A DNA stretch of 64,000 bases from an uncultured Caldisericales bacterium. GTDB taxonomy: Bacteria > Caldisericota > Caldisericia > JAAYUI01. Where the stretch lies: positions 88,425 to 152,424 of the forward strand of contig CAZXEH010000002.1 of the NCBI GenBank assembly GCA_964639885.1. Reading direction: 5' to 3'. The position numbers and the translations under genes were made by a program. Under the pieces are notes generated by a model, which made no database searches, was not told where the DNA came from, and was given only the letters and a program-made list of their open reading frames with translations. Shown one piece after another: positions 26,817 to 48,389 of this stretch. How positions within the stretch are numbered: position 1 is the first letter of the stretch; the number at the start of each line of letters is the position of its first letter.

Positions 26817-28185
26817 TTTGCCTCCTGACCAGTATTACAGGGGTCTGGTCGTCTTCGTTCCCTGCAGGATTGTCGGCCATCCACCCTTCGAGTGCGGCGG
26901 AATCTATTCCGTCAGTCTTTCCAACGACCCACGCGATCCCGAGATCGTTTGCGTCAACAATTGCCGTCTCTAGTCCGGTTTCAGCCTTTATCTGGCTTGC
27001 CAGCACGTCCGAATCGTATGGCCCGGGTATGACATAGTAGTCATAGGGAGCCATTGACGCAGGCATGTCATCGATCATTGCAACTTCAGGGCCAGCAACC
27101 ATGTAGAACCAGCCCTTTTTGCCGATCAGTTTTCCGAATGCACCACAAAACGCAGCAAAGAGAATCCTGAATGTGCTGGCGATCTCAATTGCCACCTGGA
27201 ACGAAAGCGGATTGGCAAGCGGCGACGTGGTTGCAAATGAATTTCTTGAGGAAGCGGTTACGAATCTGGCAAGGAATTTTGCCAGTCTTGAAGGTATGAT
27301 TGTTTCAGCCTGATAAATTCTTCCCTGCGTTATTGAGGCGACCGCCGATGCAAAAGTGACAATATCGCCGGGTTTCGCAATGTCTTTGATAGCCTCAGAA
27401 ATGACTTTTCCAGCAACATCTTCTTCAGTTATGATTTTTGTCTTCACCGGTATTTTGATTGTACCAGGTTTTGACGGGAGAGGCGGGGCAAGCTTCACTG
27501 ACTTCGCCGTTTCCGCAGACACTCTCTGGATTTCCTTGAGACATTTTGCGCCTTTGCGTCTTCTTGTACCTTCAAGCCAGATGTCCAGAGCTTTTCCACG
27601 GTTTCCACTCAGCTCATAACACTTGCCAAGCAAAACAAAATCGCTCTCGTAGAAGTTCGATGGTTCAAGCTTTTTGAACTCCTCGAAATACTTTATCGCC
27701 TCATCGTATTTTTTCAGGTCGAAAAGGATGTGCGATATTCGCTTGAGAATGTAGCGGTAGATCGAAAGGATGTCGGGTCTCAGGTTTTCCTTGCCAAGTT
27801 TTGTTCCTTCAAGATAGATCGATAGTGCTCTCTCAAGGTCTTCTGCAAAATAATAGAAGATATCGCCCATCGAAATAATATGCCAGTGTTGTTCGGGATT
27901 TGCCTTGTATGCCTTGCTGACAATTTTGTATGCTTCATCATACTTGCCGTCAAGTGAGAGTATCCTGGTAAGTTGACGAACCGCCGTAGGATACTTGCCA
28001 TATCTGCCGTCAATAACGCCTTCAAGCATCACTCTCGCATCAACGTTGTTCCCGAGTTTGCACAGTGCGTAGGCCAGAATGCCTGCGTTTTTATCGCCTA
28101 TTGACCTGAACGATTTCTTGCCAAGAAGTTCAACAATTTTTCTGAAGTCCTGCTCAGTTAGAGCTCGTTTCAATGCTGGGTTCAC
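26809..28185 (-). CDS. TPR-repeat protein fused to an F420-0:gamma-glutamyl-ligase-like domain
   Basis: N-terminal helical TPR-like repeats; C-terminal IPVKTKII, ASITQGR, AMIDD, IVDANDLG. Confidence 0.65.
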   Translation of the reverse strand: MNPALKRALTEQDFRKIVELLGKKSFRSIGDKNAGILAYALCKLGNNVDARVMLEGVIDGRYGKYPTAVRQLTRILSLDGKYDEAYKIVSKAYKANPEQHWHIISMGDIFYYFAEDLERALSIYLEGTKLGKENLRPDILSIYRYILKRISHILFDLKKYDEAIKYFEEFKKLEPSNFYESDFVLLGKCYELSGNRGKALDIWLEGTRRRKGAKCLKEIQRVSAETAKSVKLAPPLPSKPGTIKIPVKTKIITEEDVAGKVISEAIKDIAKPGDIVTFASAVASITQGRIYQAETIIPSRLAKFLARFVTASSRNSFATTSPLANPLSFQVAIEIASTFRILFAAFCGAFGKLIGKKGWFYMVAGPEVAMIDDMPASMAPYDYYVIPGPYDSDVLASQIKAETGLETAIVDANDLGIAWVVGKTDGIDSAALEGWMADNPAGNEDDQTPVILVRRQNV

Positions 28186-28723
28186 TTATTTCCTCTTCCA
28201 TGCCAGATTCGTTGATTATTTCAAACAGCCTTATTAGAACACTTTTAACGGATTCCCTATCCCTCGAAACGCAGGGCAGAACCTCTATCGAATCATCGAG
28301 ACTGAGAGCCTGTCTTATCTGTTCCGGTCTGAGTGCATTGGGGTCATCCTGTTTGTTTGCAACCACCACGCACGGTATTTTCATCTTGTGAAGGAAGAAT
28401 GCAAGATAGCGTTTGCCAAGGATGACCGACTTGTAGTCAGACGCATCGACCATGACAATCAATCCAAGAGCGCCGACAGAGAGTACATCCCACATGTAGG
28501 AAAACCTCTCCTGGCCTGGAGTCCCGAAGATGTACAAAACCAACTCTTCGTTGATCGTCAGTCTTCCAAAATCGAGAGCAACCGTTGTCTGTGTCTTTAC
28601 CACACGGCTCTCGTCAGTGACAGCTTTTTCTGTTGACACAACCGGAATCTCCGAAATTGTCTGTATCAGCGAAGTCTTGCCGGATGCAAAAGGCCCGGTG
28701 ACAAGAATCTTGACTCTTCTCAT
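28154..28723 (-). CDS. MglA/CvnD-like small GTPase
   Basis: GPFASGKTS, TTVALDFG, GTPGQERF, NKQD. Confidence 0.9.
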   Translation of the reverse strand: MRRVKILVTGPFASGKTSLIQTISEIPVVSTEKAVTDESRVVKTQTTVALDFGRLTINEELVLYIFGTPGQERFSYMWDVLSVGALGLIVMVDASDYKSVILGKRYLAFFLHKMKIPCVVVANKQDDPNALRPEQIRQALSLDDSIEVLPCVSRDRESVKSVLIRLFEIINESGMEEEISEPSIETSSN

Positions 28724-29352
28724 AATTTTCTCAGATAGTCAATGATAACGTTGATGATCGACTTTTTTTGCTTTTCAGGTTCGATCTTCTTTTCAACCTT
28801 CTGCTTGACCGACATCCTCTTGACCACTCCAACCTGCAAAAGCGAGTAGAAGACTCTCATAGTGTCAAATTCAGGCAAACCCAGCTCTTTGGAGATGTCC
28901 CCAAGGCTCCTGTTTCCATCGGTGAGTGCGATGACCCGCCACTGGTTCTTGTCAAACTCAAGACTGAACATCGTGAATTCAGGAGAGAGCGCATAAATTA
29001 TGTTGTTTGAAGGGATTTCCCTTCTCAAGGTTTCAAAGAGTTTCACCCTGCCTGAAGCCTCAAGCAGGAGCTGATCCATGGCGGTTACAATGTTTGCCTC
29101 CGGGGAGGTTTCATCGCCAACAAACCTGAAACTGCCGTCCTCAGCTTCGCAGATGAAGAAGAAGGCCTCCTTGCCACGAAGATCGTCAGCATAAGAGTTT
29201 GTGATAGTGCCATTCACAAAATAGACAGCGCAGTCGTACCTTTTTCCACCCTGTTCGATAACAAGAACGAGTTTTCCAGTCTTTTTGGAGATCCAGATGA
29301 ATTGACAAATCTCAACAACCGAAAAATCCTTTACATTTCCCGCAAGTTCCAT
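28720..29352 (-). CDS. DUF4388 (PatA_N-like) protein with C-terminal winged helix
   Basis: LAGNVKDFSVVEICQFI..KKTGKL..YFVNG..G.F.F; ALTDGNRSLGDISKELG. Confidence 0.8.
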   Translation of the reverse strand: MELAGNVKDFSVVEICQFIWISKKTGKLVLVIEQGGKRYDCAVYFVNGTITNSYADDLRGKEAFFFICEAEDGSFRFVGDETSPEANIVTAMDQLLLEASGRVKLFETLRREIPSNNIIYALSPEFTMFSLEFDKNQWRVIALTDGNRSLGDISKELGLPEFDTMRVFYSLLQVGVVKRMSVKQKVEKKIEPEKQKKSIINVIIDYLRKL

Positions 29353-33367: not shown

Positions 33368-35736
33368 GCCGACCTGAGTGTGGCTCCCTTTGTCTCCAAT
33401 GCCTTTGAAATATTGGAAATTACTGTGTCAATCTCTTCACCTGCAAGTGAGCCGGTTCCTTTCGAGAATGTCAGCGAATAGGCCATCGAACGCTTGTCTT
33501 CACGGGCAAAATCACCGGCGTAAAGGTCAAAGAGTTTGATTGTTTCAAGATATTCTCCGCCATTAGTCCTGATAATGCTTTCGAGATCGGCATTTGATAG
33601 TGAATTTGGTGCAAGAATGGCGATGTCCCTCAGAACCTGTGGATAGATTGGTGTTGGTTTAGCCTCAATTTTTTCAGAGACGAGCCTTGAGAATGTTTCC
33701 AGATCAAGGCTTGCTACGAATACCGGCGTTGGGATATCGAGTTTCCCAGAGATTTCTGGATGAAGCTGACCCATGTAGCCGGCTGCCTGACCGTTCACAA
33801 CAATTTTTGCCTGTCTGTAAGGGTGGAAATATGAGGTTTCGTTGGCTGCGAATTCAACTTTACCGAGCAACAGCGATTCAAACAGGGCTTCAATCGACCC
33901 TTTCAGATCAAAGTAGTCGTAATCCGCTTTTTCTGACCATGAGCTGTGTTTCCTGCCGGTCAGCATTATCGTGAGTTTGCGGAGTTCCGGGCCATATTGC
34001 GAACCGACCTCGAACATTCCAAGGTCGGTGTTCCTTTGTCTTGTATTGTACGCTGCAATCTGGATGATTCCGATTTCGGCGAGGGGTCTCATCAACGTTG
34101 AATCGGTAGTCATCGGGTTGAGAATCCTGGGTGAACTGTCGATCCATGCGTCCATGCCAAGCAGCTTCAACTCTTCTTCGCATGTAAGCATTTTGGAGTG
34201 GACCTCCATCAAGCCCATGCCTGACATGATGCGCCTTATCCGTCTTTCTAGCCCGAATAATGCCGATTCTTTCATGGTTCGTTCGGTTATGATCGGGAAA
34301 GTGGTTGGAATTTCGTCATAGCCTACAGCCCTGACCGCTTCTTCAATCAGATCGATTTCAGCCTTCAAATCTGTGTGGCGGTTGCCAGGGATTTCGCACT
34401 TGAAAGGATCGCCCTTTTCAACCTTAATACCAAGAATCTCCAGGCCCTGACAGACTTTTTCAATATTAAGGTCGAATCCAAGAATTTTCTTCATCCTGGG
34501 AATTCTGACCGGAACGATTCTCCTCTTTGTTTCAGGATAATAATCGACTGGCAGGCAGGGAACATTGCCTGAAAGCGCAAAAACTTTGTCAGCCGTTTTG
34601 CCTGACTGCTCAAAATCAGCGCCTTTTTCAAAGCGGGTCGAGGCCTCAGACCTCAAACCAAGCAGCATGGAGGTTTTGGCAATCAGAAGCGGGTTGAAGT
34701 AGGCTGATTCAAGGAAAATTCGCTTTGTAGAATCCGACACCTCGGAATCAGAACCGCCCATAACGCCGGCTATTCCAATCGGTTTGTCGCCATCCCAGAT
34801 CATCAGGGTTCCAACCGGAAGATTTCTCTTGATGCCATCAAGCGTTGTAAACTCCATGTTGACTTTGGTTCTGGCAACTCTGACAGTGCCAGATGTGATT
34901 TTATCGGCATCAAAGGCGTGGGTTGGCTGGCCGTCTTCGTACATTGCGAGGTTTGTTGCATCGACAATGTTGCTTACAGGTCTAAGTCCGGCCGAAAGGA
35001 GCTTTCTTCTGATTTCAAAACCGGATGGGACAGGCGAAACATCGGCCAGAACGCCGACATACCTTGGGCAATCTTCGGCTGATTCGATCTCAAGCTTGAG
35101 TTTATCGGAGGTTTTCAAACCGTTGTCTGAATGCTTGACATCGAGTGTTGGAATTTCCGGTGTTTTCCCGTTGATTCTCCAGTATGTTAAAGCAATTTCC
35201 CTTATCAATCCACGAACTGACAGCCATTCAGGATGGTTGGGTGTAATCTTAAGTTCAAGGATTGTGTCAGTGAGCCAGAAGGTTTTGGTTGGGTCTGTAA
35301 AAAGCGGTGCGTCCTTGGGGAAAATCCAGACTCCTTCACGCTCTGAAGCTGGCAGGATGTCAGGTTCAATGCCAAAATCCGCCGATGACAGCATCACGCC
35401 TTCTGACGTGAATCCCTGGATGGTGGCAACAGTGACATCCCGATCGCCGACTTTTCCGCCAGGCAGACAAACAGCGACTACATCACCAGCAGCGACAGTT
35501 TTGGAGTTTGTTACAACGTTTGCAGTTTTATCAGGTGAAACCTGCACCTTTGCCATCTGAAGCTTCTCTGTTGCTTTTTCAAGCGAGAGAATCTTGCCAA
35601 AAACAGAACCTTTCACCCTGTCCCTGACTTCAACGCCTTCGACTTCGATGCCAAGAATTTTGAATCCTTCTGAAATCTGGTCGAAAGAAAGACCCCAGTT
35701 TATGATCGATTCGATATAGTTTTTTGAAATTCTCAT
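33364..35736 (-). CDS. pheT: Phenylalanyl-tRNA synthetase beta subunit
   Basis: ITPNHPEWLSVRG, SNIVDATN, RFEKG, C-terminal anticodon-binding domain. Confidence 0.96.
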   Translation of the reverse strand: MRISKNYIESIINWGLSFDQISEGFKILGIEVEGVEVRDRVKGSVFGKILSLEKATEKLQMAKVQVSPDKTANVVTNSKTVAAGDVVAVCLPGGKVGDRDVTVATIQGFTSEGVMLSSADFGIEPDILPASEREGVWIFPKDAPLFTDPTKTFWLTDTILELKITPNHPEWLSVRGLIREIALTYWRINGKTPEIPTLDVKHSDNGLKTSDKLKLEIESAEDCPRYVGVLADVSPVPSGFEIRRKLLSAGLRPVSNIVDATNLAMYEDGQPTHAFDADKITSGTVRVARTKVNMEFTTLDGIKRNLPVGTLMIWDGDKPIGIAGVMGGSDSEVSDSTKRIFLESAYFNPLLIAKTSMLLGLRSEASTRFEKGADFEQSGKTADKVFALSGNVPCLPVDYYPETKRRIVPVRIPRMKKILGFDLNIEKVCQGLEILGIKVEKGDPFKCEIPGNRHTDLKAEIDLIEEAVRAVGYDEIPTTFPIITERTMKESALFGLERRIRRIMSGMGLMEVHSKMLTCEEELKLLGMDAWIDSSPRILNPMTTDSTLMRPLAEIGIIQIAAYNTRQRNTDLGMFEVGSQYGPELRKLTIMLTGRKHSSWSEKADYDYFDLKGSIEALFESLLLGKVEFAANETSYFHPYRQAKIVVNGQAAGYMGQLHPEISGKLDIPTPVFVASLDLETFSRLVSEKIEAKPTPIYPQVLRDIAILAPNSLSNADLESIIRTNGGEYLETIKLFDLYAGDFAREDKRSMAYSLTFSKGTGSLAGEEIDTVISNISKALETKGATLRSA

Positions 35737-36836
35737 CTCACGCCTCCAAACTGCGAAAGGAAGCGGGCATCGCAGGCTGTGAACTCCCTTATGTCCTTGA
35801 CTCCGAACTTCATGATGGCGATTCGCTCTATTCCCCAGCCAAAGGCAAAACCCTGGTAAACCTCAGGATCAATACCACATTTTTGAAGCACGTTTGGGTG
35901 AACCATTCCTGAGCCACCCATCTCGATCCAGCCTGATTGCTGGCAGATGTTGCAGCCTTTACCACCACAGAATGGACAGGAAGCCAGCGTTTCGGCGCCC
36001 GGTTCGACAAACGGGAAATATGACGGCAGAAACTTGACCTTCACGTCACCGCCAAACAGTTCGGACAAAATGATTGAGATAATTCCAGCCAAATCAGAGA
36101 AGCCAATGTTCTTGTCGACCATCAGGCCTTCAACCTGGTTGAAGTAAGGGGAGTGGGTTGCATCGAGTGCATCACGCCTGAAGCACGATCCCATGGCAAT
36201 CATTCTGATCGGTGGTTTCTGCTCAAGCATTGTTCTTACCTGAACCGGTGAGGTGTGAGTCCTCAGAAGCCTGTCCCCGTCGATATAAAACGTGTCCTGC
36301 ATGGCTCGAGCCGGGTGCCACTGCGGGAAGTTCAGGGCTTCGAAGTTGTAGAAATCTGTTTCTATATGTGGTCCCTGCTTGACCTCAAAACCAAGCTTGT
36401 GGAATATTTCGGTTATCTCTTCCTGAACGATTGTCAAAGGGTGAACCGTGCCATAGTTTGGCTTTCTGCCTGGCATGGTTATGTCGATGGTTTCAGACCT
36501 GAGGGCTTCCTCACGCTGGAATTTTCTAAACTTCTCAAGCTGGAATTCAATTTGTCCATCGAGATGGTTTTTGAAATCGTTGAGTATCTGGCCAAACTCC
36601 TTGCGTTTATCTGGGTCAAGTTTGCCAAGTTCCCTTAGAAGTCCGGTGACAACACCTTTTCTTCCAAAGAGATTGGTCTGCATGTTTGAGAGATTCTCGC
36701 CGGCCTCTTTGGTAAATCCATTGACTTCGGCAAATGCATGCTTGATTGATTCTTCAATGTTCAATGATTCTTTCAGTTGCGGAAACTGGCTCAGGAGTTT
36801 ATCTCCGAGTTCCCTGACTTTTCCAGCGTCACTCAC
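35733..36836 (-). CDS. pheS: Phenylalanyl-tRNA synthetase alpha subunit
   Basis: Start re-set to GTG 36836 (GGAGG SD, GTGA overlap); HPARAMQDTFY, LRTHTSPVQ, YFPFVEP, GFAFGWGIER. Confidence 0.97.
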   Translation of the reverse strand: MSDAGKVRELGDKLLSQFPQLKESLNIEESIKHAFAEVNGFTKEAGENLSNMQTNLFGRKGVVTGLLRELGKLDPDKRKEFGQILNDFKNHLDGQIEFQLEKFRKFQREEALRSETIDITMPGRKPNYGTVHPLTIVQEEITEIFHKLGFEVKQGPHIETDFYNFEALNFPQWHPARAMQDTFYIDGDRLLRTHTSPVQVRTMLEQKPPIRMIAMGSCFRRDALDATHSPYFNQVEGLMVDKNIGFSDLAGIISIILSELFGGDVKVKFLPSYFPFVEPGAETLASCPFCGGKGCNICQQSGWIEMGGSGMVHPNVLQKCGIDPEVYQGFAFGWGIERIAIMKFGVKDIREFTACDARFLSQFGGVR

Positions 36837-38203
36837 TTTATTGCCTCCATATAACGGTTTGTGTAGCATCCATAGTCTGGCCCAAGCGCATCGCCCATTC
36901 CGGCAGCCCTTGCCCTGCATCCGCCGCATTCGATCCTGTGCCTGCAGTTTCCGCAGATTCCTTTGAGTTTTGTTCTGTCCCAAAGAATCTCAAATCCCAG
37001 CCATGCTTCTTTAAGGGTTTGCCTTGTCAAATTGCCGACGACCGGATAGAACGGCGAAAACATGCATGGAGTGAGGTCTCCGTTGGGCTGAATGTTGGCA
37101 TAGAGCCTGCCGGCTGGACACCCACCGAAAACGAACCTCAAAGATTTCATGTATCTTCGGTTTTTGCCCATGTTGAAATAGGCCGTGATCGGGAAGCAGT
37201 TTGAATCAGGCAGCTTTTGCTCTCCACGACCATCAACCATCGCTGATTCGGTTGCAAAGTGTGGCGTTTCCGAGAGTACTTCAATCTCGGGATCATCAAT
37301 CTTTGCAAGCTTTTCCATGACTTCCGCCCTTTGTTTTGGCGTTAGGTCAAGGTTTTTGATCGATTCGCCCCTTCCAACCGGAATGAGGTGGTAGAAAACA
37401 ATCCTGTTGAAATGGTGATTTTTTGCCAAATCTACGAACTCGTCGATCTTGTCTGCATTGAAAGCTGTGAGAGTGACGCCCATTGAAAGGTACATGCCAA
37501 CAGCCTTCATCGCTGCAACACCTTTCATGCTCAGGTTGAAAGCGCCATCCATTCCCCTGAACTGGTCATGGACTTTTGGATCAGGGGAGTCGATTGAGAC
37601 CTGGGCGTATCTGATGCCGAATTCGACGAGCTTTGAAGCGACCTGGTTATCAATGAGGGTTCCGTTTGTATCGATGGAGACAAAGATGCCCTTCGACGAA
37701 GCATAACCCGCAATCTCCCAGAAATCATCAGACATGAGCGGTTCTCCACCTGAAAAGGTGATTGCGGCAGTTCCAGTCTCATCCAGCTGGTCAATGATTG
37801 ACAGTTTCTGGGCTTTGGTCATCAAATCCTTCTGGTCTATCGAAGCTTTCTGGAAGCAGTGCTGACACAGGAGATTGCACCTGTTTGTCAGATTGAATAC
37901 CACAGAAAATGGGGCCGTGACAATGAGTGGCGTGTTGTAGCCATACTTTATCAGGCTGTCCACAACGATCATGAAGCACCTTGCAATGCCAGGATCAGAC
38001 AGTGATTTCTTTACTTCTGACCATGGAACGCCTGCACTTCCCATAAAAACCCTGAGGACAAGCCCGAAGAAGAACGCGTAGAACCTTTCGGAAAAGGTTC
38101 CATTTCGTCTTGCGCCGATGATCTCAAATGAAATGCGTGCCAGTCTCTTTGACCTTGATAGCACAAAGCGGGAAAATCTATTACCAACAAGCCATTTAGC
38201 CAT
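36833..38203 (-). CDS. Radical SAM protein with SPASM domain
   Basis: CNLLCQHC, FSGGEPL, CPAG...PC, CGNC...CGGCRARA. Confidence 0.9.
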   Translation of the reverse strand: MAKWLVGNRFSRFVLSRSKRLARISFEIIGARRNGTFSERFYAFFFGLVLRVFMGSAGVPWSEVKKSLSDPGIARCFMIVVDSLIKYGYNTPLIVTAPFSVVFNLTNRCNLLCQHCFQKASIDQKDLMTKAQKLSIIDQLDETGTAAITFSGGEPLMSDDFWEIAGYASSKGIFVSIDTNGTLIDNQVASKLVEFGIRYAQVSIDSPDPKVHDQFRGMDGAFNLSMKGVAAMKAVGMYLSMGVTLTAFNADKIDEFVDLAKNHHFNRIVFYHLIPVGRGESIKNLDLTPKQRAEVMEKLAKIDDPEIEVLSETPHFATESAMVDGRGEQKLPDSNCFPITAYFNMGKNRRYMKSLRFVFGGCPAGRLYANIQPNGDLTPCMFSPFYPVVGNLTRQTLKEAWLGFEILWDRTKLKGICGNCRHRIECGGCRARAAGMGDALGPDYGCYTNRYMEAIK

Positions 38204-38320
38204 TTGGCTACATTATACACTGCCTAAAACAAAATAAAAGTCAGGTTTTTAAAGGGGTTGACTGCGTGTGATTTCAAAGTAGCATCATTATTAGGATTCT
38301 TATGTCTTAAGGAGGCCATC

Positions 38321-38683
38321 GTGGAGCTTGAGAATGTACTGGAGGAATTGGAGCTGGAACTGTCTGATTTTTACGCGGCCGCAATCGTTGGTCTTGACGG
38401 GCTGTCCATTGCGGAAGTTTCAGCAGGTGTTGAGATGGATATAACCGAGGTCTCGGCTGAATTTGCCTCAGTTATCAATTCGCTTGCAAAAACTTCACTT
38501 TCCATTAACGCCGGAGCAGTGACCGGAACACTCGAATCTACAGAAAAATATCACTTTCTCACTCAGATGATCGATGACTTCCCATATTTCCTGCTCGTCG
38601 TCATTGGCAATTCAGGCAACATCGGCAAGGCGCGCTACATGATGAACAGAGTATCACCGGTCATCAAGGAGATCCTGCGATGA
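38321..38683 (+). CDS. Roadblock/LC7 (MglB-like) protein
   Basis: Start re-set to GTG 38321 (GGAGG SD); AAIVGLDGL..., GNIGKARY; 120 aa. Confidence 0.8.
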   Translation: MELENVLEELELELSDFYAAAIVGLDGLSIAEVSAGVEMDITEVSAEFASVINSLAKTSLSINAGAVTGTLESTEKYHFLTQMIDDFPYFLLVVIGNSGNIGKARYMMNRVSPVIKEILR

Positions 38684-40923
38684 ACACCAGAATCATTGAA
38701 AAGATGATGGCGAAAGCCTACAAAAAAATCCCATCCTGCGAACAGATAGTCGTGGCCACAGCTGATGGAATCGGAATCGCCTGCTATCCACCTAACTGTG
38801 ACTTTGCCGACTCGATTGCAGCATCATCAACCTCAATCACCGGCCTCTCTGACGCCTCTTCTGAATTCCTTGGAAAAGGTGAGGTCAACTACACCCTCAT
38901 CCGCTCAAACGGCGGGTACATCCTCGTTTTTGGCATGGGAACATTCAACCTGTTTGTCATGGCGGGCAAAAAGGTGAACCTTGGACTGCTTCTGCTGGTC
39001 GGAAACAGGCTTGCTGACGACCTGGCGCAATCCGTTTCAGAAATCGTTGTCGAGAGGGAACTTGAGGAAGACGTGCACATGCTGGCAAGAGAGCTGGCGG
39101 AAGCCCAATCGGAAGACAAGGTTCAAATCGAGCTCATGCTTGAAGATGAAGAGGGCGAGGCTGTGCCGAAAGATTTGAAAGAAACCCTTGACATTGCAGG
39201 TCAAATTGCCGACGAATGCGCCAAGAAGGACATTCCCTGCGACATCAGGATTTCAATCGAAGAACCTTTTAAACACCCAACCTCTCACGACCACACCGAC
39301 TTCGAGCCAACCACAGAGAAGATTGAACCCAAAGTGAAGATCAACCCTGAAGATGTGAAGCCCTCAGAAATCAAATATCACAACGAGGTACCCATCTACC
39401 ATCAGGAACCGCCAAAAGACAGGCCTGAACCGACAAAGTCACCAATCCAGGAACATGAAGACGAAGTGGTTCTTGAGCCGACAACATTCATGAAAAACGG
39501 AGTTAAATTCATTCCTGATGACATCAAGCCAACAGAAGTCAGGCAAATGAACGACTCCGAGATCAGGGATGAAACGGTTGAATTCAAGGAAAAGGCAATG
39601 CAGGATTATGGCGTCACGCACGATGACCATGTTCTTGAGCCAACAACCGAGAAATTGCCCGATGTTGAAAAGCCGGTTCCGGCTAAACCGGTTGAAGTCA
39701 GGCGCATGAATGATTCAGAAATCAGCAACGAAAGAACCGAGTTCGAGCCAAAACCGATGCAAGATTACGGCAAAGATCATGAAGACCACGTTCTCGAGCC
39801 GACAACTGAACATATTCAGGCAAAAGATGCGGTAAATCCTGAAGAAGTTAAACCACAGGAAGTCAAGTGGCACAATGAAGTTCCGATCTACCACGAAGAA
39901 CCGAAGAAAGATTCTCCCGATCCAACAATTATTCCCAAAACTGAGCATGTTGATGAAACAGTCCTTGAGCCGACCACTTTGACAAAAAGATATGACGGAA
40001 CAAGGATTCTGCCTGAGGAAGTGAAACCGGTTGAAGTTAGGCGTATGAACGATTCTGAAATCAGCCATGAAAGAACAGAGTTCGAACCAAAGAGAATGCA
40101 GGACTATGGCGTCACGCACGATGACCATGTTCTTGAGCCAACCATCGAGAAGTTGCCCGATGTTGAAAAGCCGGTTCCGGCTAAACCGGTTGAAGTCAGA
40201 CGCATGAATGATTCTGAAATTAGCCATGAAAGAACAGAATTCGAGCCGAAACCGATGCAGGACTACGGCAAGGAACACGATGATCATGTTCTCGAACCAA
40301 CAACTGAACATATTCCGGCAAAAGATGCGGTTAATCCTGAAGAAGTTAAACCACAGGAAGTCAAATGGCATAATGAGGTTCCGATCTACCACGAAGAACC
40401 GAAGAAAGATTCTCCCGATCCAACGATCATTCCGAGAACTGAGCATGTTGATGAAACAGTCCTTGAGCCGACCACTTTGACAAAAAGATATGACGGAACA
40501 AGGATTCTGCCTGAGGAAGTGAAACCGGTTGAAGTTAGGCGTATGAACGATTCAGTTGAACATCACGAACCGATCGAGTTCCAGCCGAAGGAAATGAAGG
40601 AATACGGCAAGACGTACGACGACCACACCCTTGAACCGACAACCGAAAAAATTGATGTCGAGCAGCCGAACCCTGACGATGTGAAACCATCTCCAATAAT
40701 CAGAGCCGGCGAAGAGGATCATGCAAAGGCCATCGAATTCCCTTCGGACAGAGCAAATATTGATGAATCGGCGAAACAGGCTGAGATCGACCCAAACGTT
40801 TCATCGGTTCTTGACAGGCTCAACAAGGCGATTGACAGCTTCAAGAACTCTGAAAAGAATTCACTTTTTGACAAAGACGAAGCTGACCCGTTTGCCGACA
40901 AGGATGATTTGACCGAGTATTAA
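38680..40923 (+). CDS. Roadblock/LC7-domain protein with long acidic Pro/His-rich repeat tail
   Basis: N-terminal VVATADGI...VNLGLLL Roadblock fold; nine ~55-aa EPT(T/I)-containing repeats follow. Confidence 0.8.
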   Translation: MNTRIIEKMMAKAYKKIPSCEQIVVATADGIGIACYPPNCDFADSIAASSTSITGLSDASSEFLGKGEVNYTLIRSNGGYILVFGMGTFNLFVMAGKKVNLGLLLLVGNRLADDLAQSVSEIVVERELEEDVHMLARELAEAQSEDKVQIELMLEDEEGEAVPKDLKETLDIAGQIADECAKKDIPCDIRISIEEPFKHPTSHDHTDFEPTTEKIEPKVKINPEDVKPSEIKYHNEVPIYHQEPPKDRPEPTKSPIQEHEDEVVLEPTTFMKNGVKFIPDDIKPTEVRQMNDSEIRDETVEFKEKAMQDYGVTHDDHVLEPTTEKLPDVEKPVPAKPVEVRRMNDSEISNERTEFEPKPMQDYGKDHEDHVLEPTTEHIQAKDAVNPEEVKPQEVKWHNEVPIYHEEPKKDSPDPTIIPKTEHVDETVLEPTTLTKRYDGTRILPEEVKPVEVRRMNDSEISHERTEFEPKRMQDYGVTHDDHVLEPTIEKLPDVEKPVPAKPVEVRRMNDSEISHERTEFEPKPMQDYGKEHDDHVLEPTTEHIPAKDAVNPEEVKPQEVKWHNEVPIYHEEPKKDSPDPTIIPRTEHVDETVLEPTTLTKRYDGTRILPEEVKPVEVRRMNDSVEHHEPIEFQPKEMKEYGKTYDDHTLEPTTEKIDVEQPNPDDVKPSPIIRAGEEDHAKAIEFPSDRANIDESAKQAEIDPNVSSVLDRLNKAIDSFKNSEKNSLFDKDEADPFADKDDLTEY
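39598..40553 (+). repeat. Intragenic tandem duplication, period 498 bp (166 aa)
   Basis: ATGCAGGA(T/C)TATGGCGTCACGCACGATGACC at 39598 and 40096; near identity runs to GGCGTATGAACGATTC at ~40055 and 40553. Confidence 0.92.
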
Positions 40924-40937
40924 ACCTAATCCAAAAC

Positions 40938-40970
40938 AAAAAGGCCAGACATAAAGTCTGGCCTTTTTTT
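40938..40970. terminator. Bidirectional intrinsic terminator
   Basis: AAAAAGGCCAGAC-ATAAA-GTCTGGCCTTTTTTT between convergent genes. Confidence 0.88.
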
Positions 40971-42573: not shown

Positions 42574-43284
42574 ATGCTAGGAATTCAAGGACTAATCAGA
42601 CTTTCGAAGCTTGACCTGGAAATAAGGCTGATTGAAAAAGAAATCGAAACAGCTGATGACGGTTCCAGCCTGCAGTCAGAGATTACCAATCTGGCGCAGA
42701 TTGTTGCACAGGGTGAGGCCATCTTCAAAAAGAACAGGGAAGAGCTTGAAGACAACAAACTCCAGCTTGACAAGTCGATCCTGGAACGCAAAAAAATTGA
42801 ATCATCGATGTTTCAGCCAAACACATCGGTCAAGCGCCTTGAAGAGCTTCAGGACCACAAAAAGAAGATCGACAAATTCATCGACGAGCTTGAGACTAAA
42901 GGCATCGGGCTGATGGATCAATCCGACAAGATCGGAGAAAAGCTGGCCAAAGCGAAGAGGCTGCTCGATAATAAAAAACAGCTGTTTGAACAAAAATCCA
43001 CCGAATTCAAAAAACTCAAGCTCAAAGGCGAGATAAAAATCGCAGACATCAAAAGAGACAGAGACCAGCTTGCGCCAACAATTTCGAAAGACCTGACAAC
43101 AATTTATGACAAACTCATGAACACTAAAAATGGTCTTGCGATGGTGGAAGTGGCTGGCAATCAATGCAACGGATGCCAGCAGACAATCCCTTCCGTCATC
43201 ATCCAGGCGGTCAGGGATGAGCCTGAAGAGCTTCATTATTGCAACAATTGTGGCAGGCTGATCTACATCTGGAGGAACGAGTGA
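42574..43284 (+). CDS. Coiled-coil protein with C4-type zinc ribbon (DUF164-like)
   Basis: Long coiled coil, then CNGC...CNNCGRLI. Confidence 0.85.
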   Translation: MLGIQGLIRLSKLDLEIRLIEKEIETADDGSSLQSEITNLAQIVAQGEAIFKKNREELEDNKLQLDKSILERKKIESSMFQPNTSVKRLEELQDHKKKIDKFIDELETKGIGLMDQSDKIGEKLAKAKRLLDNKKQLFEQKSTEFKKLKLKGEIKIADIKRDRDQLAPTISKDLTTIYDKLMNTKNGLAMVEVAGNQCNGCQQTIPSVIIQAVRDEPEELHYCNNCGRLIYIWRNE

Positions 43285-43694
43285 AAAAGGTTGAAGTCTG
43301 GACAGATGGCGCATCGAGGGGAAACCCTGGTCAGGCCAGTTTTGGAACCATCTGTGAAGTTGACGGAAAACTCACTTTCCAGGACAGCTACGAAATCGGC
43401 ATAAAGACAAACAATGCTGCTGAATATGCCGGCCTGATTTATGCCCTCTCCAAGCTGATCAAGCTTGGCCTGGAAAACGAAGATGTGACGATCAAGTCTG
43501 ACAGCCAGCTGATGGTCAGGCACATGTCAGGCGAATACAAGCTGAAAACCAAAGAGCTGCTGGAGTATTTCCTGACAGCCCAAAACCTTTATTCGAGATT
43601 CACCAGTTGCAAAATCATCCACGTTGGCAGGGAACTCAACAAGTCAGCCGACAGGATGGCAAACCTCGCGTTCGGGCAAGGAGATGAGAAATGA
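43281..43694 (+). CDS. rnhA: Ribonuclease HI
   Basis: WTDGASRGNPG, TNNAAEY, SDSQL, NKSADRMAN; start re-set to GTG 43281. Confidence 0.92.
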   Translation: MKKVEVWTDGASRGNPGQASFGTICEVDGKLTFQDSYEIGIKTNNAAEYAGLIYALSKLIKLGLENEDVTIKSDSQLMVRHMSGEYKLKTKELLEYFLTAQNLYSRFTSCKIIHVGRELNKSADRMANLAFGQGDEK

Positions 43695-45220
43695 GCGGAA
43701 AAACGTACACCTATGAAGAGCTTGATGTCATGACTGCAAGAGAACTCTACGACATCTGCAAGGATTTGAAGATCAAGAATTATACAAGCTTCAAAAAGAA
43801 TGACCTCATCAACGAGATCATCATGGTTGCCTCGGGTGAGAAAGAGATTGTCAGGAAAAAGAGGGGCAGAAAATCCAAAGCCGAACTTGAAGCCATGAGA
43901 AAGGCGCTCGAGCTTGCAGAGAAACGCGAGACAGAGAAGCTCTACGGCACAATAAAGCCGGAAGAGAAAAAGCCTGTTCCACACGAACCAAAAGAAAAGC
44001 CGGATTACGACAAACCCCTTCTCATAAAGCACGATATCAGCCACCTCAGGGAACAGCAGCAGAAAACAGTACAGCAGGAGCAGAAAGCCTCAGAAGATGA
44101 CGAGCTCCAGGGTCATGCAGGCGGAGTTCTTGAAATCCACCCGGATGGATACGGCTTCCTGAGAACCCAGTACGTTCCTTCGCCAAAGGACGTTTATCTT
44201 GCCCCGTCGCAGATCAGGCGCTTCGGTTTCAGAAACGGCGATTTCATTGAAGGAATCGTCAGGTTCCCGACAAAGCAGGGCGAAAAATATTCAGCCATGC
44301 TCAAGATCGAAACCTGCAACGGCGTCGACCCGGAACAGCTTCGCAGCAGACCAAATTTTGAAAGCCTCATCCCGATTTTCCCGAATGAAAAACTGAAAAT
44401 GGAATATCCAGGAAGAAACGACATTACGCTGAGGGTTGTTGACCTTGTCGCACCAATCGGCAAAGGCCAGCGCGGCATGATCGTCTCTCCGCCAAAAGCT
44501 GGAAAAACCACAGTCATAAAAAAGATAGCCCAGGCCATTTCGGTCAATCATCCGGAAGTCACGCTCATGATCCTCCTGGTTGACGAACGCCCGGAAGAGG
44601 TAACCGACATGCAAAGATCGGTGAATGCACAGGTTATCAGCTCAACATTCGACCAACTCCCTGAAAATCACATAAGGGTTGTCGAACTCGCAATTGAACG
44701 CGCAAAACGTCTTGTCGAAATGAGGAAAGATGTAGTCATTCTGATGGACGGCATCACGAGGCTGACAAGAGCTTACAACCTTGTAATGACCCCGACTGGC
44801 AGAACCCTCACCGGCGGCCTCGACACCTCCGCCATTCATGGGCCAAAGAAAATCCTTGGCGCTGCAAGAAACATTGACAACGGTGGTTCACTGACCATCA
44901 TCGCAACATCGCTCATCGAGACCGGCTCAAAGATGGACGAGGTCATTTACGAAGAGTTCAAGGGAACCGGCAATATGGAGCTTGTTCTTGACAGAAAGCT
45001 TGCAGAAAAGGGTATTTTCCCAGCCATCGACATCAACCGCTCAGGCACAAGGCGCGACGAACTCCTTTACGACGACGAGATGGGCAAGAGAATCAGACAA
45101 CTTCGTAGATTCCTCACAAACCTCGACCCGACAGACGCTCTCGACAAACTCTACAAGTGGCTGCAGGAAACACGCGACAACAAGACGTTCCTCCAGATGT
45201 TGGTGGCAGAAAAGCGCTAG
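43691..45220 (+). CDS. rho: Transcription termination factor Rho
   Basis: DGYGFLR, PIGKGQRG, PPKAGKT, DERPEEVTD, FKGTGN. Confidence 0.98.
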   Translation: MSGKTYTYEELDVMTARELYDICKDLKIKNYTSFKKNDLINEIIMVASGEKEIVRKKRGRKSKAELEAMRKALELAEKRETEKLYGTIKPEEKKPVPHEPKEKPDYDKPLLIKHDISHLREQQQKTVQQEQKASEDDELQGHAGGVLEIHPDGYGFLRTQYVPSPKDVYLAPSQIRRFGFRNGDFIEGIVRFPTKQGEKYSAMLKIETCNGVDPEQLRSRPNFESLIPIFPNEKLKMEYPGRNDITLRVVDLVAPIGKGQRGMIVSPPKAGKTTVIKKIAQAISVNHPEVTLMILLVDERPEEVTDMQRSVNAQVISSTFDQLPENHIRVVELAIERAKRLVEMRKDVVILMDGITRLTRAYNLVMTPTGRTLTGGLDTSAIHGPKKILGAARNIDNGGSLTIIATSLIETGSKMDEVIYEEFKGTGNMELVLDRKLAEKGIFPAIDINRSGTRRDELLYDDEMGKRIRQLRRFLTNLDPTDALDKLYKWLQETRDNKTFLQMLVAEKR

Positions 45221-47574: not shown

Positions 47575-48378
47575 ATGCAATTTTCAATGCTGCTTGGAAC
47601 GCAAGTCATCGGTTGTTACATGGCCAAAGGGTTCACCGGAGCCGTCAAGATTTCAAATCAGAACGACATGGCTACAGCCTGGCTCAATTTGGGTAAGGTA
47701 ACTGCCATGAGAACCAGTCAGGAGGCAGAAACCCAGGCTCTTAATTTTCTCTCGAAAACTACGGCCGGTGAGGTTATAACAAAATCTGATCTGGCTGGCT
47801 CAGGTAAAACCGATTACCCAATGTTGCTTGAGGAACTGGTACTGTCCGGCAGAATCAATTTCTCATCGATGCTTCCTGTTCAACACAATGTTTTTTGTAT
47901 CAAAGGCGGTAACTCAGACTTCGAGTCTCTCAAATCATCGCAATCAATAAAAAATCTTCTGAGCATGGTTGGAAATGGCATAACTTTCTCTGCGTTGGCA
48001 AACGCCTTTCCGGTTACAGATTTCTGGAGCTCTTTCATTCTGGCAACATCTGTCGGAGCCGTAATCCCAAGCTACCACAAACTCCTCGGTGAAGTCGTAA
48101 AAAAATACCAGGAGGTTGTAGACGCTGAGATAAAGAGATTCATGGGAATTGCCATATCGCACTCCTTCAACACAAAAGTGGACAAGGCAATTGTTGACTG
48201 GAGGGAAAGTTTCACTGATCCGGTGTTTGGTGCCAAGCCGTTTGAAGCATGGGCCAAAGCGGTTGTTATTGCAGTCAACGAAACAGTACCATCAACCATT
48301 TCGGAGAAAATGCTGGCAAAGGTTTTATCATCATTTTCAACACTTGACCAAAAAACAATTTCATTACTTGTTTCCTGA
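47575..48378 (+). CDS. Hypothetical protein with DUF4388-like N-terminus
   Basis: AAGGAG SD; FTGAVKI...AWLNLGKV resembles the DUF4388 TG.L.I..G.I pattern. Confidence 0.55.
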   Translation: MQFSMLLGTQVIGCYMAKGFTGAVKISNQNDMATAWLNLGKVTAMRTSQEAETQALNFLSKTTAGEVITKSDLAGSGKTDYPMLLEELVLSGRINFSSMLPVQHNVFCIKGGNSDFESLKSSQSIKNLLSMVGNGITFSALANAFPVTDFWSSFILATSVGAVIPSYHKLLGEVVKKYQEVVDAEIKRFMGIAISHSFNTKVDKAIVDWRESFTDPVFGAKPFEAWAKAVVIAVNETVPSTISEKMLAKVLSSFSTLDQKTISLLVS

Positions 48379-48389
48379 AAGGAGCAGAA

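What the first reader, a model, noticed from the sequence alone, without database searches (positions are those of the whole stretch)
38680..40923. Roadblock domain fused to a hierarchical 9 x ~55-aa repeat tail
Seen: after a Roadblock fold and linker come nine units with H.D..LEPT(T/I)...P..VKP.EV..(MND/HNE). Three unit types form a 166-aa higher-order repeat duplicated almost exactly (498 bp period). The tail is acidic, rich in Pro, His and Glu, and has almost no hydrophobic core. I do not recognise the repeat family. Inference: a recently expanding disordered scaffold, for example a polar organiser, condensate former, multivalent GTPase dock or metal binder.
Basis: partly seen in the sequence, partly recalled or inferred. 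Interest (0 to 1): 0.7.

Follow-up and report, generated by a model that had tools for sequence, protein, structure and literature searches.

The report
Roadblock protein with conserved nine-repeat acidic tail
A few uncultured sludge bacteria (Caldisericales) encode a small-GTPase-regulator domain (Roadblock/MglB type) fused to a long, acidic, probably unfolded tail of nine ~55-residue repeats found nowhere else; the gene sits in a two-gene operon with an MglC-like partner, so it most likely acts as a scaffold in a cell-polarity-type GTPase switch.

Summary
ORF 38680-40923 (+) encodes 747 aa: a Roadblock/LC7 domain, a conserved helix plus a small beta-alpha-beta element, nine ~55-aa units in the pattern (B-C-A)x3, and a conserved C-terminal helix with an acidic end peptide. 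No known family matches the repeat. A profile search of 1.84 billion proteins found only its own orthologues.

"Recently expanding" is not supported. Three orthologues at ~66% identity share the nine-unit layout. The two similar 166-aa blocks differ at dS 0.33-0.80, with dN/dS 0.05-0.13. Paralogous units share species-specific residues, which indicates concerted evolution. The one six-unit relative is probably a collapsed assembly.

AlphaFold2 gives no fold for the tail, yet the tail is as conserved as the folded domain. A more distant relative carries a non-repetitive acidic Pro/Glu tail instead.

New context:
- The upstream, translationally coupled 120-aa gene is MglC-like (PDB 7ct3, E 5e-10).
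- A PATAN / GTPGQ-type MglA-family GTPase / TPR operon lies 10 kb away.

Best reading (confidence ~0.45): an MglB-family subunit carrying a RomR-like acidic disordered scaffold. It is a new variant of a known kind and moderately interesting.

The parts
38258..38285 (+). Promoter-like site (TTGACT-16-TAGCAT) upstream of the two-gene operon
   Evidence: Consensus scan. This is weak evidence on its own. It lies about 36 nt before the GTG start of the partner gene.
38321..38683 (+). Partner gene: 120-aa MglC-like Roadblock protein with a GTG start preceded by AAGGAGG. Its stop overlaps the ATG of the next gene (ATGA).
   Evidence: phmmer and profile searches against PDB hit M. xanthus MglC 7ct3 at E 7.5e-9 and 4.6e-10; the next hit is at 5e-3. 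The start and Shine-Dalgarno site were read from the sequence. The gene is called at 120 aa in all relatives. It keeps L25-D26-L28 and K103/R105/(R/K)110, which correspond to the MglC FDI and KRR patches (PMC10329633).
38680..40923 (+). Roadblock-repeat gene, 747 aa
   Evidence: ORF. Orthologues P0001-P0004. Synonymous changes dominate in this frame only, among frames that hold an ORF.
38680..39039 (+). Roadblock/LC7 domain (aa 1-120) with an invariant D29-G30
   Evidence: Pfam PF03259 above its gathering score. PDB profile hits to the Thorarchaeota Roadblock 7f8m (5e-7), 9jue, Rv3364c and CvnB5. AF2 plus Foldseek.
39040..39264 (+). Conserved helix (EEDVH.LARELxE) and a small predicted beta-alpha-beta element with invariant C180 and C187 (aa 121-195)
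   Evidence: Alignment A1. AF2 secondary structure at pLDDT 40-64. The fold is not identified.
39265..40764 (+). Nine ~55-aa units (aa 196-695) in the pattern (B-C-A)x3. Consensus: MQDYG..HDDH.LEPTTE..P....NPEEVKP.EV...N(D/E)SE..HE..EFEPK
   Evidence: The unit HMM scores 59-93 bits on each of the nine units, which is circular but shows the register.
39598..40095 (+). 166-aa block, copy 1 (units 3-5, aa 307-472)
   Evidence: TRF period 498. Codon comparison.
40096..40593 (+). 166-aa block, copy 2 (units 6-8, aa 473-638)
   Evidence: As for copy 1. A 115-nt perfectly identical tract (39939-40053 = 40437-40551) has permutation P of about 0.002, which suggests a gene-conversion tract.
40792..40860 (+). 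Conserved C-terminal amphipathic helix (aa 705-727, VSSVLDRLNKAIDSF...)
   Evidence: AF2 helix at pLDDT 55-69. Conserved in all full-length orthologues and in fragments P0005 and P0006.
40861..40920 (+). Acidic C-terminal peptide ending ...DPFADKDDLTEY
   Evidence: Identical in W, P0001-P0003 and P0005. P0006 ends ...DPFNDKDDLTEY. The distant homologue ends ...EGDDLFKGF.
40938..40968 (.). Strong bidirectional terminator-like hairpin (13-bp stem flanked by A and T runs) between this operon and the convergent BioF/Kbl-like gene
28154..28723 (-). Candidate cognate small GTPase (189 aa) of the MglA family with a GTPGQ G3 motif. This is context, not a proven partner.
   Evidence: Pfam ATP_bind_1, Arf and Ras. 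Sequence. PDB hits to Arf-like proteins and MglA. The GTPGQ motif marks MglA groups 2-5 (PMC4316618). It is the only small P-loop GTPase in the window.
28720..29352 (-). PATAN/DUF4388 protein immediately upstream of the GTPase, with overlapping stop and start (context)
   Evidence: Pfam PF14332, 8e-13. PATAN genes are known neighbours of MglA and MglB genes (PMC4316618).
26809..28185 (-). TPR protein immediately downstream of the GTPase (context)
   Evidence: Pfam TPR_2, TPR_14 and TPR_8.

Best explanation
The 747-aa protein is the large subunit of a two-protein Roadblock complex that regulates or positions a small MglA-family GTPase. It resembles an MglB-type platform fused to a RomR-like scaffold.

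Shown:
- Its N-terminus is a Roadblock/MglB-family domain.
- It is co-oriented and translationally coupled with a 120-aa MglC-like Roadblock protein in a two-gene operon.
- Its remaining ~550 residues are an acidic, Pro/Glu-rich segment with no predicted fold.
- That segment ends in a conserved helix and an acidic end peptide.

Inferred:
- The Roadblock domains dimerise, with each other or with the partner, to form the GTPase-binding platform. The GTPGQ-type GTPase of the nearby PATAN-GTPase-TPR operon is the obvious candidate.
- The tail provides many copies of a conserved set of short binding motifs: nine per chain, eighteen per dimer.
- The C-terminal helix and peptide oligomerise or anchor the complex. 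They may bind the basic patch kept by the MglC-like partner, as the acidic helical C-terminus of RomR binds MglC.

The net effect would be to concentrate the GTPase switch at one cellular site.
For: Domain and fold:
- Roadblock domain above the Pfam gathering threshold. The Roadblock fold is confirmed by AF2 and Foldseek, with hits including MglB, MglC, Asgard Roadblocks and Ragulator.
- Invariant D29-G30. This is the one motif reported as conserved in MglB homologues coupled to GTPGQ-type MglA proteins (PMC4316618).

Partner gene:
- It matches MglC 7ct3 at E 4.6e-10 and keeps the FDI-like and KRR-like residues. In M. xanthus those patches bind MglB and the acidic RomR C-terminal helix (PMC10329633).
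- ATGA overlap, Shine-Dalgarno sites, one promoter-like site and one terminator.
- One metatranscriptome contig spans both genes, 38320-38890.

GTPase context:
- A GTPGQ GTPase with PATAN and TPR genes lies 10 kb away, in the same position in all relatives.

Tail:
- pLDDT below 35; one block modelled alone gave pTM 0.12 and no secondary structure.
- Net charge -57, Pro 12%.
- dN/dS 0.05-0.13, and 65-69% identity between orthologues against 62-67% for the folded domain. The sequence itself is therefore selected, not only length or charge.
- A distant homologue in the same synteny has a 252-aa non-repetitive tail with 20% Glu, 13% Pro, net charge -47, one ILEPTS motif and an acidic ...DDLFKGF end.
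Against: - No interaction was tested and no multimer prediction was possible.
- The GTPase is seven genes away. That is outside the 'within four genes' criterion for coupled MglA/MglB pairs (PMC4316618). The synteny is conserved only among close relatives, so it proves little.
- The MglC subfamily was reported only in genomes with group-1 MglA (PMC4719450). The only GTPase in the window is the GTPGQ type, so the true cognate GTPase may lie elsewhere in the genome.
- By sequence the Roadblock domain is closer to archaeal and CvnB-type Roadblocks than to MglB.
- Conservation as high as in the folded domain is unusual for a disordered scaffold. The units may instead fold on a partner, or adopt a structure AF2 cannot see with so shallow an alignment.
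Confidence: 0.45

Rival explanations
1. The tail is a passive spacer or entropic spring, like titin PEVK or the TonB Pro-rich rod. It only sets a distance between the Roadblock platform and whatever the C-terminal helix and peptide bind. The repeats matter for length and charge, not as binding sites.
For: The composition is Pro/Glu/Val/Lys/Asp-rich with frequent EP, KP and NP dipeptides and a recurring PEEVKP.EV motif. No fold is predicted. Unit number is conserved at nine in three lineages. There is a conserved C-terminal anchor-like element. The distant homologue has a non-repetitive tail of similar composition.
Against: Position-specific conservation is as strong as in the folded domain. 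dN/dS is 0.05-0.13, and motifs such as MQDYG, HDDH.LEPTT, MNDSE, EFEPK and HNEVPIYHEEP are kept across ~35% overall divergence. A pure spacer would tolerate far more change.
Confidence: 0.2
2. The units are filament- or lattice-binding modules, like nebulin or tau. Each ~55-aa unit would bind one subunit of a periodic cytoskeletal or membrane-associated polymer, and the three-unit block would match a higher-order period. The protein would then tether a Roadblock/GTPase platform along that polymer.
For: The two-level periodicity (55 aa and 166 aa), strict conservation of unit number and order, strong purifying selection on a segment with no predicted autonomous fold, and concerted evolution resemble known disordered filament-binding repeat proteins. 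That comparison rests on general knowledge.
Against: No candidate polymer gene lies in the window. The distant homologue works with a non-repetitive tail. There is no sequence similarity to any known filament-binding repeat.
Confidence: 0.08
3. The tail is a metal-binding or metal-buffering segment, with His/Asp/Glu clusters such as H-D-D-H binding Zn, Ni or Fe.
For: Each unit has two to four His next to acidic residues (HDDH, EH.DE, YH.EP). His makes up 5.5% of the tail. A cation-efflux gene lies 8 kb downstream.
Against: His content is modest compared with true His-rich metal chaperones. There are no Cys in the tail. In type-C units the first His of the motif is replaced (EHVDET). The tail of the distant homologue shows no such His motifs when its translation is read (not quantified). 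The efflux gene is not in the operon.
Confidence: 0.05
4. The tail, or its C-terminal ...TEY end, is a substrate of the divergently transcribed radical-SAM/SPASM enzyme (36833-38203). That enzyme would cross-link or otherwise modify the repeated motifs.
For: The rSAM/SPASM gene is the immediate divergent neighbour in every locus recovered. This includes the distant ones (L007, L009), where the downstream neighbour has changed. SPASM enzymes commonly modify peptides. This one matches no NCBIfam equivalog above its cut-off and has an extra ~100-aa N-terminus.
Against: Its best matches are the heme-type enzymes NirJ and AhbD. PheS and PheT are equally syntenic, so the adjacency may be plain inherited gene order. 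A 747-aa cytoplasmic protein is not a typical RiPP precursor. There are no Cys in the tail.
Confidence: 0.04

Closest known systems
MglB (Roadblock/LC7-family GAP of MglA; T. thermophilus, M. xanthus) and the wider prokaryotic MglB family, including CvnB
   Same: Roadblock fold with Foldseek TM ~0.7 to MglB structures. Pfam Robl_LC7 match. A conserved Asp-Gly pair, as in MglB homologues coupled to GTPGQ-type MglA proteins. An MglA-family GTPase lies in the neighbourhood.
   Different: Typical family members are single-domain proteins of 129-179 aa encoded within four genes of their GTPase (PMC4316618). This one is 747 aa with a ~550-aa non-globular extension and lies seven genes from the GTPase. 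By sequence it is nearer to archaeal and CvnB-type Roadblocks than to MglB. GAP activity is untested.
MglC (M. xanthus MXAN_5770, PDB 7ct3/7cy1). This comparison is for the operon partner, not the repeat protein.
   Same: 120 aa, full-length similarity at E 4.6e-10, a GN(F/I)GK(G/A)RY motif, and conservation of the positions equivalent to F25/D26/I28 and K104/R106.
   Different: F and I are replaced by Leu, and the third basic residue is shifted by one position. MglC-type proteins were described in genomes with group-1 MglA and are usually orphan genes. Here the gene is fused into an operon with another Roadblock gene, and the visible GTPase is the GTPGQ type.
RomR (M. xanthus polarity scaffold: receiver domain + IDR + acidic alpha-helical C-terminus that oligomerises, binds MglC and targets the pole)
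   Same: The same three-part logic: a folded N-terminal signalling domain, a long disordered region and a conserved helical/acidic C-terminus. It is genetically linked to an MglC-like protein.
   Different: There is no homology. The N-terminal domain is Roadblock, not a receiver. The disordered part is about 510 aa of highly conserved hierarchical repeats. Binding of the C-terminus to the partner is only inferred.
PEVK region of titin / TonB Pro-rich spacer / PopZ linker (acidic Pro-rich disordered segments)
   Same: Composition rich in Pro, Glu, Val, Lys and Asp, with PEEVKP-like motifs, predicted extended and disordered, and repetitive. The comparison rests on general knowledge.
   Different: No detectable sequence relationship. 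The protein is cytoplasmic and bacterial, and its residue-level conservation is much stronger.

Membership tests
Roadblock/LC7 (Pfam PF03259), prokaryotic MglB family | Sequence match to the Robl_LC7 model above its gathering score | tested here: met
   32.1 bits against a cut-off of 23, aa 12-87. A PDB profile search hits Roadblock proteins only.
Roadblock/LC7 (Pfam PF03259), prokaryotic MglB family | Alpha-beta-beta-alpha-beta-beta-beta-alpha Roadblock fold | tested here: met
   AF2 secondary-structure order H-E-E-H-E-E-E-H at pLDDT ~65-83. Foldseek top 50 are all Roadblock-type structures, TM 0.6-0.77.
Roadblock/LC7 (Pfam PF03259), prokaryotic MglB family | Conserved Asp-Gly pair reported for MglB homologues coupled to group 2-5 (GTPGQ) MglA proteins | tested here: met
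   D29-G30 is invariant in five orthologues. The criterion comes from PMC4316618.
Roadblock/LC7 (Pfam PF03259), prokaryotic MglB family | Gene coupled to an MglA-family GTPase gene (within four genes) | tested here: not met
   The only small GTPase in the window (28154-28723) is seven genes and ~10 kb away. About 44% of MglB-family genes are such 'orphans' (PMC4316618), so this does not exclude membership.
Roadblock/LC7 (Pfam PF03259), prokaryotic MglB family | GAP or platform activity on a small GTPase | not testable with these tools
   Needs biochemistry or multimer modelling.
MglC subfamily (operon partner, 38321-38683) | Specific sequence similarity to MglC rather than to other Roadblock proteins | tested here: met
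   7ct3 at E 4.6e-10. The next Roadblock hit is at 5e-3, and MglB is not hit.
MglC subfamily (operon partner, 38321-38683) | Conserved F25-D26-I28 (MglB interface) and K104-R106-R110 (RomR interface) | tested here: inconclusive
   The partner has L25-D26-L28 and K103-R105, with R/K at position 110 (one position off) in all four orthologues. The residues are conservative but not identical.
MglC subfamily (operon partner, 38321-38683) | Occurs in genomes that encode a group-1 (TVPGQ, Arg-finger) MglA | not testable with these tools
   Only 64 kb of the genome is visible, and the GTPase seen there is the GTPGQ type. The criterion comes from PMC4719450.
RomR | N-terminal response-regulator receiver domain | tested here: not met
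   The N-terminus is Roadblock, with no Response_reg hit. The protein is not a RomR homologue. The resemblance is architectural only.
RomR | Long IDR followed by an acidic alpha-helical C-terminus | tested here: inconclusive
   The IDR and a C-terminal helix (aa 705-727) plus acidic peptide are predicted. The helix itself is amphipathic rather than Glu-rich.
Any curated repeat or domain family for the tail (Pfam, NCBIfam, PDB) | Significant match of the 55-aa unit or the 166-aa block | tested here: not met
   There are no hits above threshold. The best are sub-threshold chance matches: PaRep2b at 0.008 and CHORD at 0.013. The exhaustive profile search found only orthologues.

The most novel reading that the evidence does not exclude
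The nine conserved units are not merely disordered docking sites. Two readings of this kind remain open. In the first, they are substrates of the conserved, divergently transcribed radical-SAM/SPASM enzyme, giving a post-translationally cross-linked cytoplasmic scaffold. In the second, they are nebulin-like modules that measure out a periodic polymer. Either reading would make this a new kind of bacterial structural protein tethering a Roadblock/GTPase switch.
Probability: 0.08. Interest if true: 0.8.

Novelty: new variant of a known kind. Interest (0 to 1): 0.47.

Why it matters
Small-GTPase polarity modules (MglA, MglB, MglC, RomR) are understood almost only in Myxococcus and a few relatives.

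This operon, from a deep-branching and barely studied phylum (Caldisericota), pairs an MglC-like protein with a Roadblock protein that carries its own long acidic disordered region and a C-terminal helix. Those are the features supplied in Myxococcus by the separate protein RomR. If the analogy holds, the 'folded switch domain + acidic IDR + oligomerising C-terminus' design would have arisen independently. It would also provide a naturally fused, minimal two-gene system for study.

Separately, the tail is a clear bacterial example of a predicted-disordered region under purifying selection as strong as a folded domain's. It has a two-level repeat structure maintained by concerted evolution. That makes it useful material for asking what sequence-specific functions such regions have.

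Tried and rejected
1. A protein search with the N-terminal 196 aa alone returned nothing, not even the known 97%-identical orthologue. I treat this as a failure of candidate retrieval, not as evidence of absence.
2. A search for Nanopore runs holding the locus found none, so no long read spans the array. The duplication rests on junction contigs, depth and sequence divergence.
3. The sub-threshold Pfam hits (PaRep2b at 0.008, CHORD at 0.013) are rejected. They fall below their gathering scores and lie in low-complexity helical or His-rich stretches.
4. The 243-aa antisense ORF at 39715-40446 is rejected as a gene. In its frame the differences between copies are 1 synonymous to 31 non-synonymous.
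5. The six-unit orthologue P0001 is rejected as evidence of copy-number variation. A contig from a sample carrying that lineage has the ...EFEPK(R)|MQDYGV... junction, which exists only in the longer array. Depth over the block is ~2.8x the flanks in another sample. That fits a collapsed MAG assembly.
6. 'Recent expansion' is rejected.
7. Scans of GTDB species genomes and JGI metagenomes added only the two known MAGs and one plain short Roadblock gene in an unrelated context (L006). The scan patterns were strict, so absence elsewhere is not proven by them. The exhaustive profile search carries the weight here.
8. The window was scanned for further Roadblock or small-GTPase genes and none was found.
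9. The two neighbouring no-Pfam proteins (47575-48378 and 48390-49199) were tested for paralogy and are unrelated.
Full report
**1. The observation**

The ORF at 38680-40923 (+) is real and encodes 747 aa.
- Pfam places a Roadblock/LC7 domain at aa 12-87, at 32.1 bits against a gathering score of 23.
- [LF]EPT anchors recur nine times, at aa 208, 265, 319, 372, 429, 485, 538, 595 and 651, spaced 53-57 residues apart.
- Tandem Repeats Finder reports 39597-40553 with period 498, 1.9 copies and 93% matches.
- The tail (aa 196-703) has 125 acidic and 68 basic residues (net -57), 12% Pro, 5.5% His and no Cys. Its mean hydropathy is -1.23, well on the disordered side of the Uversky line.

The description needs three refinements:
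- The units fall into three types arranged (B-C-A)x3, so the whole array is three copies of one three-unit block. The first copy is the most diverged.
- The 'linker' (aa 121-195) is a conserved helix plus a small predicted beta-alpha-beta element with two invariant cysteines.
- The repeats are followed by a conserved amphipathic helix (aa 705-727) and an acidic end peptide, ...DPFADKDDLTEY.

**2. Is the duplication an artefact?**

No.
- The two 498-nt blocks differ at 51 positions. In the 456-nt core they differ at 31 positions, giving 25 synonymous and 6 non-synonymous codon changes. An assembler cannot invent that pattern.
- Logan contigs from a biofilm metagenome (X1) match the window exactly. 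They include a contig (40026-40134) that crosses the block-2 to block-3 junction at flank-like depth. The repeated part has 1.5x the flank depth.
- A sludge metagenome (X2) has an exact junction contig at 39987-40134.
- A metatranscriptome (X12) holds exact contigs of copy-2-specific sequence, and one contig (38320-38890) runs from the upstream gene into this one. The tool warns that such runs can contain DNA.
- No long-read run could be found.

**3. Relatives and the age of the array**

Only four homologues exist among 5.8 billion clustered proteins, all from Caldisericia/Caldisericales metagenome bins or sludge-type samples. The two complete ones at ~66% identity (P0002, P0003) have the same nine units in the same order.

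Position-specific signatures are shared across species. Unit 5 ends ...SE(I/V)SHE(R/K)TEFEPK and unit 8 ends ...SVEH(H/P)EP(I/V)EF(E/Q)PK in all three. The nine-unit layout therefore predates their divergence.

Within each genome, however, units 3/6, 4/7 and 5/8 are 74-96% identical in DNA, while orthologous units between genomes are ~70% identical. Species-specific residues are shared by paralogous units: LEPT in the window, LEPQ in P0002 and LEPA in P0003. A 115-nt perfectly identical tract sits within otherwise diverged copies (permutation P of about 0.002). Together these are the marks of concerted evolution by gene conversion, not of recent expansion. Synonymous divergence between the two blocks is 0.33 (window core), 0.74 (P0002) and 0.80 (P0003).

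The 581-aa relative P0001 lacks exactly one block, and its single block is a hybrid of the window's two. But a contig from a sample holding that lineage carries the ...EFEPK(R)|MQDYGV... junction, which exists only in the longer array. In another sample the block has ~2.8x the depth of its flanks. The six-unit gene model is therefore most likely a collapsed assembly. Other contigs carrying the operon simply end inside the repeats.

**4. Selection and structure of the tail**

dN/dS between the two blocks is 0.05-0.13. Between the window and P0001 it is 0.10 for units 1-3, against 0.02 for the N-terminal part and 0.07 for the partner gene. Amino-acid identity of the tail between orthologues (65-69%) equals that of the Roadblock domain (62-67%).

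AlphaFold2 nevertheless gives pLDDT below 35 and no secondary structure for aa 186-703 in the full-length model. One 166-aa block modelled with a 12-sequence alignment of blocks gave pTM 0.12 and no secondary structure. The tail is thus most likely non-globular, yet its sequence is constrained residue by residue. That argues for many copies of specific binding motifs, or folding upon binding, rather than a mere spacer.

The 243-aa antisense ORF inside the repeats is not coding: 1 synonymous to 31 non-synonymous differences in its frame.

**5. Is the repeat known?**

No.
- Pfam, NCBIfam and PDB sequence searches of the tail and of single blocks give nothing above noise.
- A profile of 30 units searched against all 1.84 billion cluster representatives found three proteins, all orthologues or their C-terminal fragments.
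- No paper in the searched library mentions Caldisericum together with MglA. A broader search for MglB/Roadblock proteins with disordered C-terminal extensions returned nothing describing this family.

**6. Surroundings**

*The partner gene.* The gene immediately upstream (38321-38683, GTG start behind AAGGAGG) ends in an ATGA overlap with the start of the repeat gene. A promoter-like site lies upstream and a strong bidirectional hairpin lies right after the stop, so this is a two-gene operon. The 120-aa product has no Pfam hit. It matches M. xanthus MglC (7ct3) over its full length at E 7.5e-9 as a single sequence and 4.6e-10 as a profile, far better than any other Roadblock structure. It keeps L25-D26-L28 and K103/R105/(R/K)110. 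The equivalent MglC residues (F25-D26-I28 and K104-R106-R110) form the interfaces to MglB and to the acidic helical C-terminus of RomR (PMC10329633).

*The GTPase operon.* Ten kilobases upstream on the other strand lie three overlapping genes:
- a PATAN/DUF4388 protein (28720-29352);
- a 189-aa small GTPase (28154-28723);
- a TPR protein (26809-28185).

The GTPase has the G3 motif GTPGQ. According to PMC4316618 this motif marks groups 2-5 of the MglA family. The same paper notes PATAN genes near some MglA genes, and a conserved Asp-Gly pair in the MglB homologues coupled to such GTPases. D29-G30 is invariant in the repeat protein and D26-G27 in the partner. No other small GTPase or Roadblock gene is in the window. 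In Bdellovibrio, MglA and RomR both bind a TPR protein (PMC3983030).

*Other neighbours.* The rest of the window holds housekeeping genes. Gene order around the operon is the same in all close relatives, which says little about function at this phylogenetic distance.

**7. A more distant relative**

The partner family has 14 members. One at 45% identity (L007) sits in the same PheS / rSAM | partner | Roadblock arrangement. Its Roadblock protein is 372 aa, with a non-repetitive 252-aa tail of 20% Glu and 13% Pro and net charge -47. That tail has one ILEPTS motif and ends ...EGDDLFKGF. The ancestral trait is therefore 'Roadblock + acidic Pro/Glu disordered tail + acidic/aromatic C-terminus'. The nine-unit array is a clade-specific elaboration built around an LEPT-containing segment.

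**8. Mechanism**

My best reading (confidence ~0.45) is an MglB-family platform subunit that carries a RomR-like scaffold of its own.
- *Shown:* domain identity, operon structure, MglC-like partner, predicted disorder, purifying selection, and the conserved C-terminal helix and peptide.
- *Inferred:* the Roadblock domains and partner form a complex; that complex acts on the GTPGQ GTPase or on another MglA-family GTPase elsewhere in the genome; the tail supplies up to 18 motif sets per dimer; the acidic C-terminus binds the partner's basic patch or oligomerises, as RomR's does.

Rival readings:
- a passive PEVK/TonB-like spacer (0.2), disfavoured by the residue-level conservation;
- a nebulin/tau-like polymer-binding ruler (0.08);
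- a metal binder (0.05);
- a substrate of the neighbouring rSAM/SPASM enzyme (0.04).

**9. Classification**

The protein meets the sequence and fold criteria of the Roadblock/MglB family. It fails the genomic-coupling criterion and departs from the family's single-domain architecture. It is not a RomR homologue. The repeat belongs to no described family. I rate it a new variant of a known kind and moderately interesting. It is unlikely to overturn anything, but it offers a compact natural system for studying how disordered scaffolds are joined to Roadblock/GTPase switches, and an unusually well-constrained bacterial disordered repeat.

Noticed in passing
window 26809-29352 (-): Three overlapping genes encode a PATAN/DUF4388 protein, a GTPGQ-type MglA-family small GTPase and a TPR protein. 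No Roadblock gene is in this operon. The only Roadblock genes in the window are 10 kb away.
   Followed up: partly
window 36833-38203 (-); also L001, L002, L003, L007, L009, L011, L012: A radical-SAM/SPASM protein (456 aa) is transcribed divergently from the Roadblock operon in every locus recovered, including distant ones. Its best NCBIfam hits are NirJ and AhbD types at ~180-200 bits, far below their cut-offs of 500 or more. It has an extra ~100-aa N-terminus. Its family and substrate are unknown.
   Followed up: partly
window 42574-45220 (+): Three genes with overlapping ends encode a CT398/CdsZ-like coiled-coil zinc-ribbon protein, an RNase H and the transcription terminator Rho. An RNase H directly coupled to rho suggests a shared role in R-loop handling. 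This Rho (509 aa) carries a Lys/Glu/Pro-rich N-terminal insertion.
   Followed up: no
window 39715-40446 (-): A 243-aa antisense ORF lies inside the repeats. It is itself repetitive and rich in Phe, Arg and Asn. It is a by-product of the sense-strand codon pattern: differences between copies are 1 synonymous to 31 non-synonymous in its frame.
   Followed up: yes
L003 10001-11746 (MAG CAYYJO010000017.1): The 581-aa orthologue with six units appears to be a collapsed repeat in a co-assembled MAG. Sample contigs show a junction that only a longer array has, and the block has ~2.8x the flank depth.
   Followed up: yes
window 35733-36983 (-): The longest PheS ORF (416 aa, TTG start) overlaps the end of the rSAM gene by ~150 nt. 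Relatives call PheS at 367 aa, so the true start is probably about 49 codons further in.
   Followed up: no
window 47575-49199 (+): Two adjacent proteins of 267 and 269 aa have no Pfam match and are conserved in the relatives (266 + 270/273 aa). They are not paralogues of each other. The second looks membrane-embedded.
   Followed up: partly
L006 17-289 (JGI Ga0315289_10081899): A plain short Roadblock protein shares the MAGKKVNLGL motif (43% identity over 78 aa). It lies in a low-GC contig next to a PAS-domain protein and a KaiC/RecA-like ATPase. It shows that the parent of the N-terminal domain is an ordinary single-domain Roadblock.
   Followed up: partly
(tool behaviour): A word-indexed protein search with the 196-aa N-terminus found no hit at all, although a 97%-identical protein is in the database. 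Negative results from that tool with short queries should not be read as absence.
   Followed up: no
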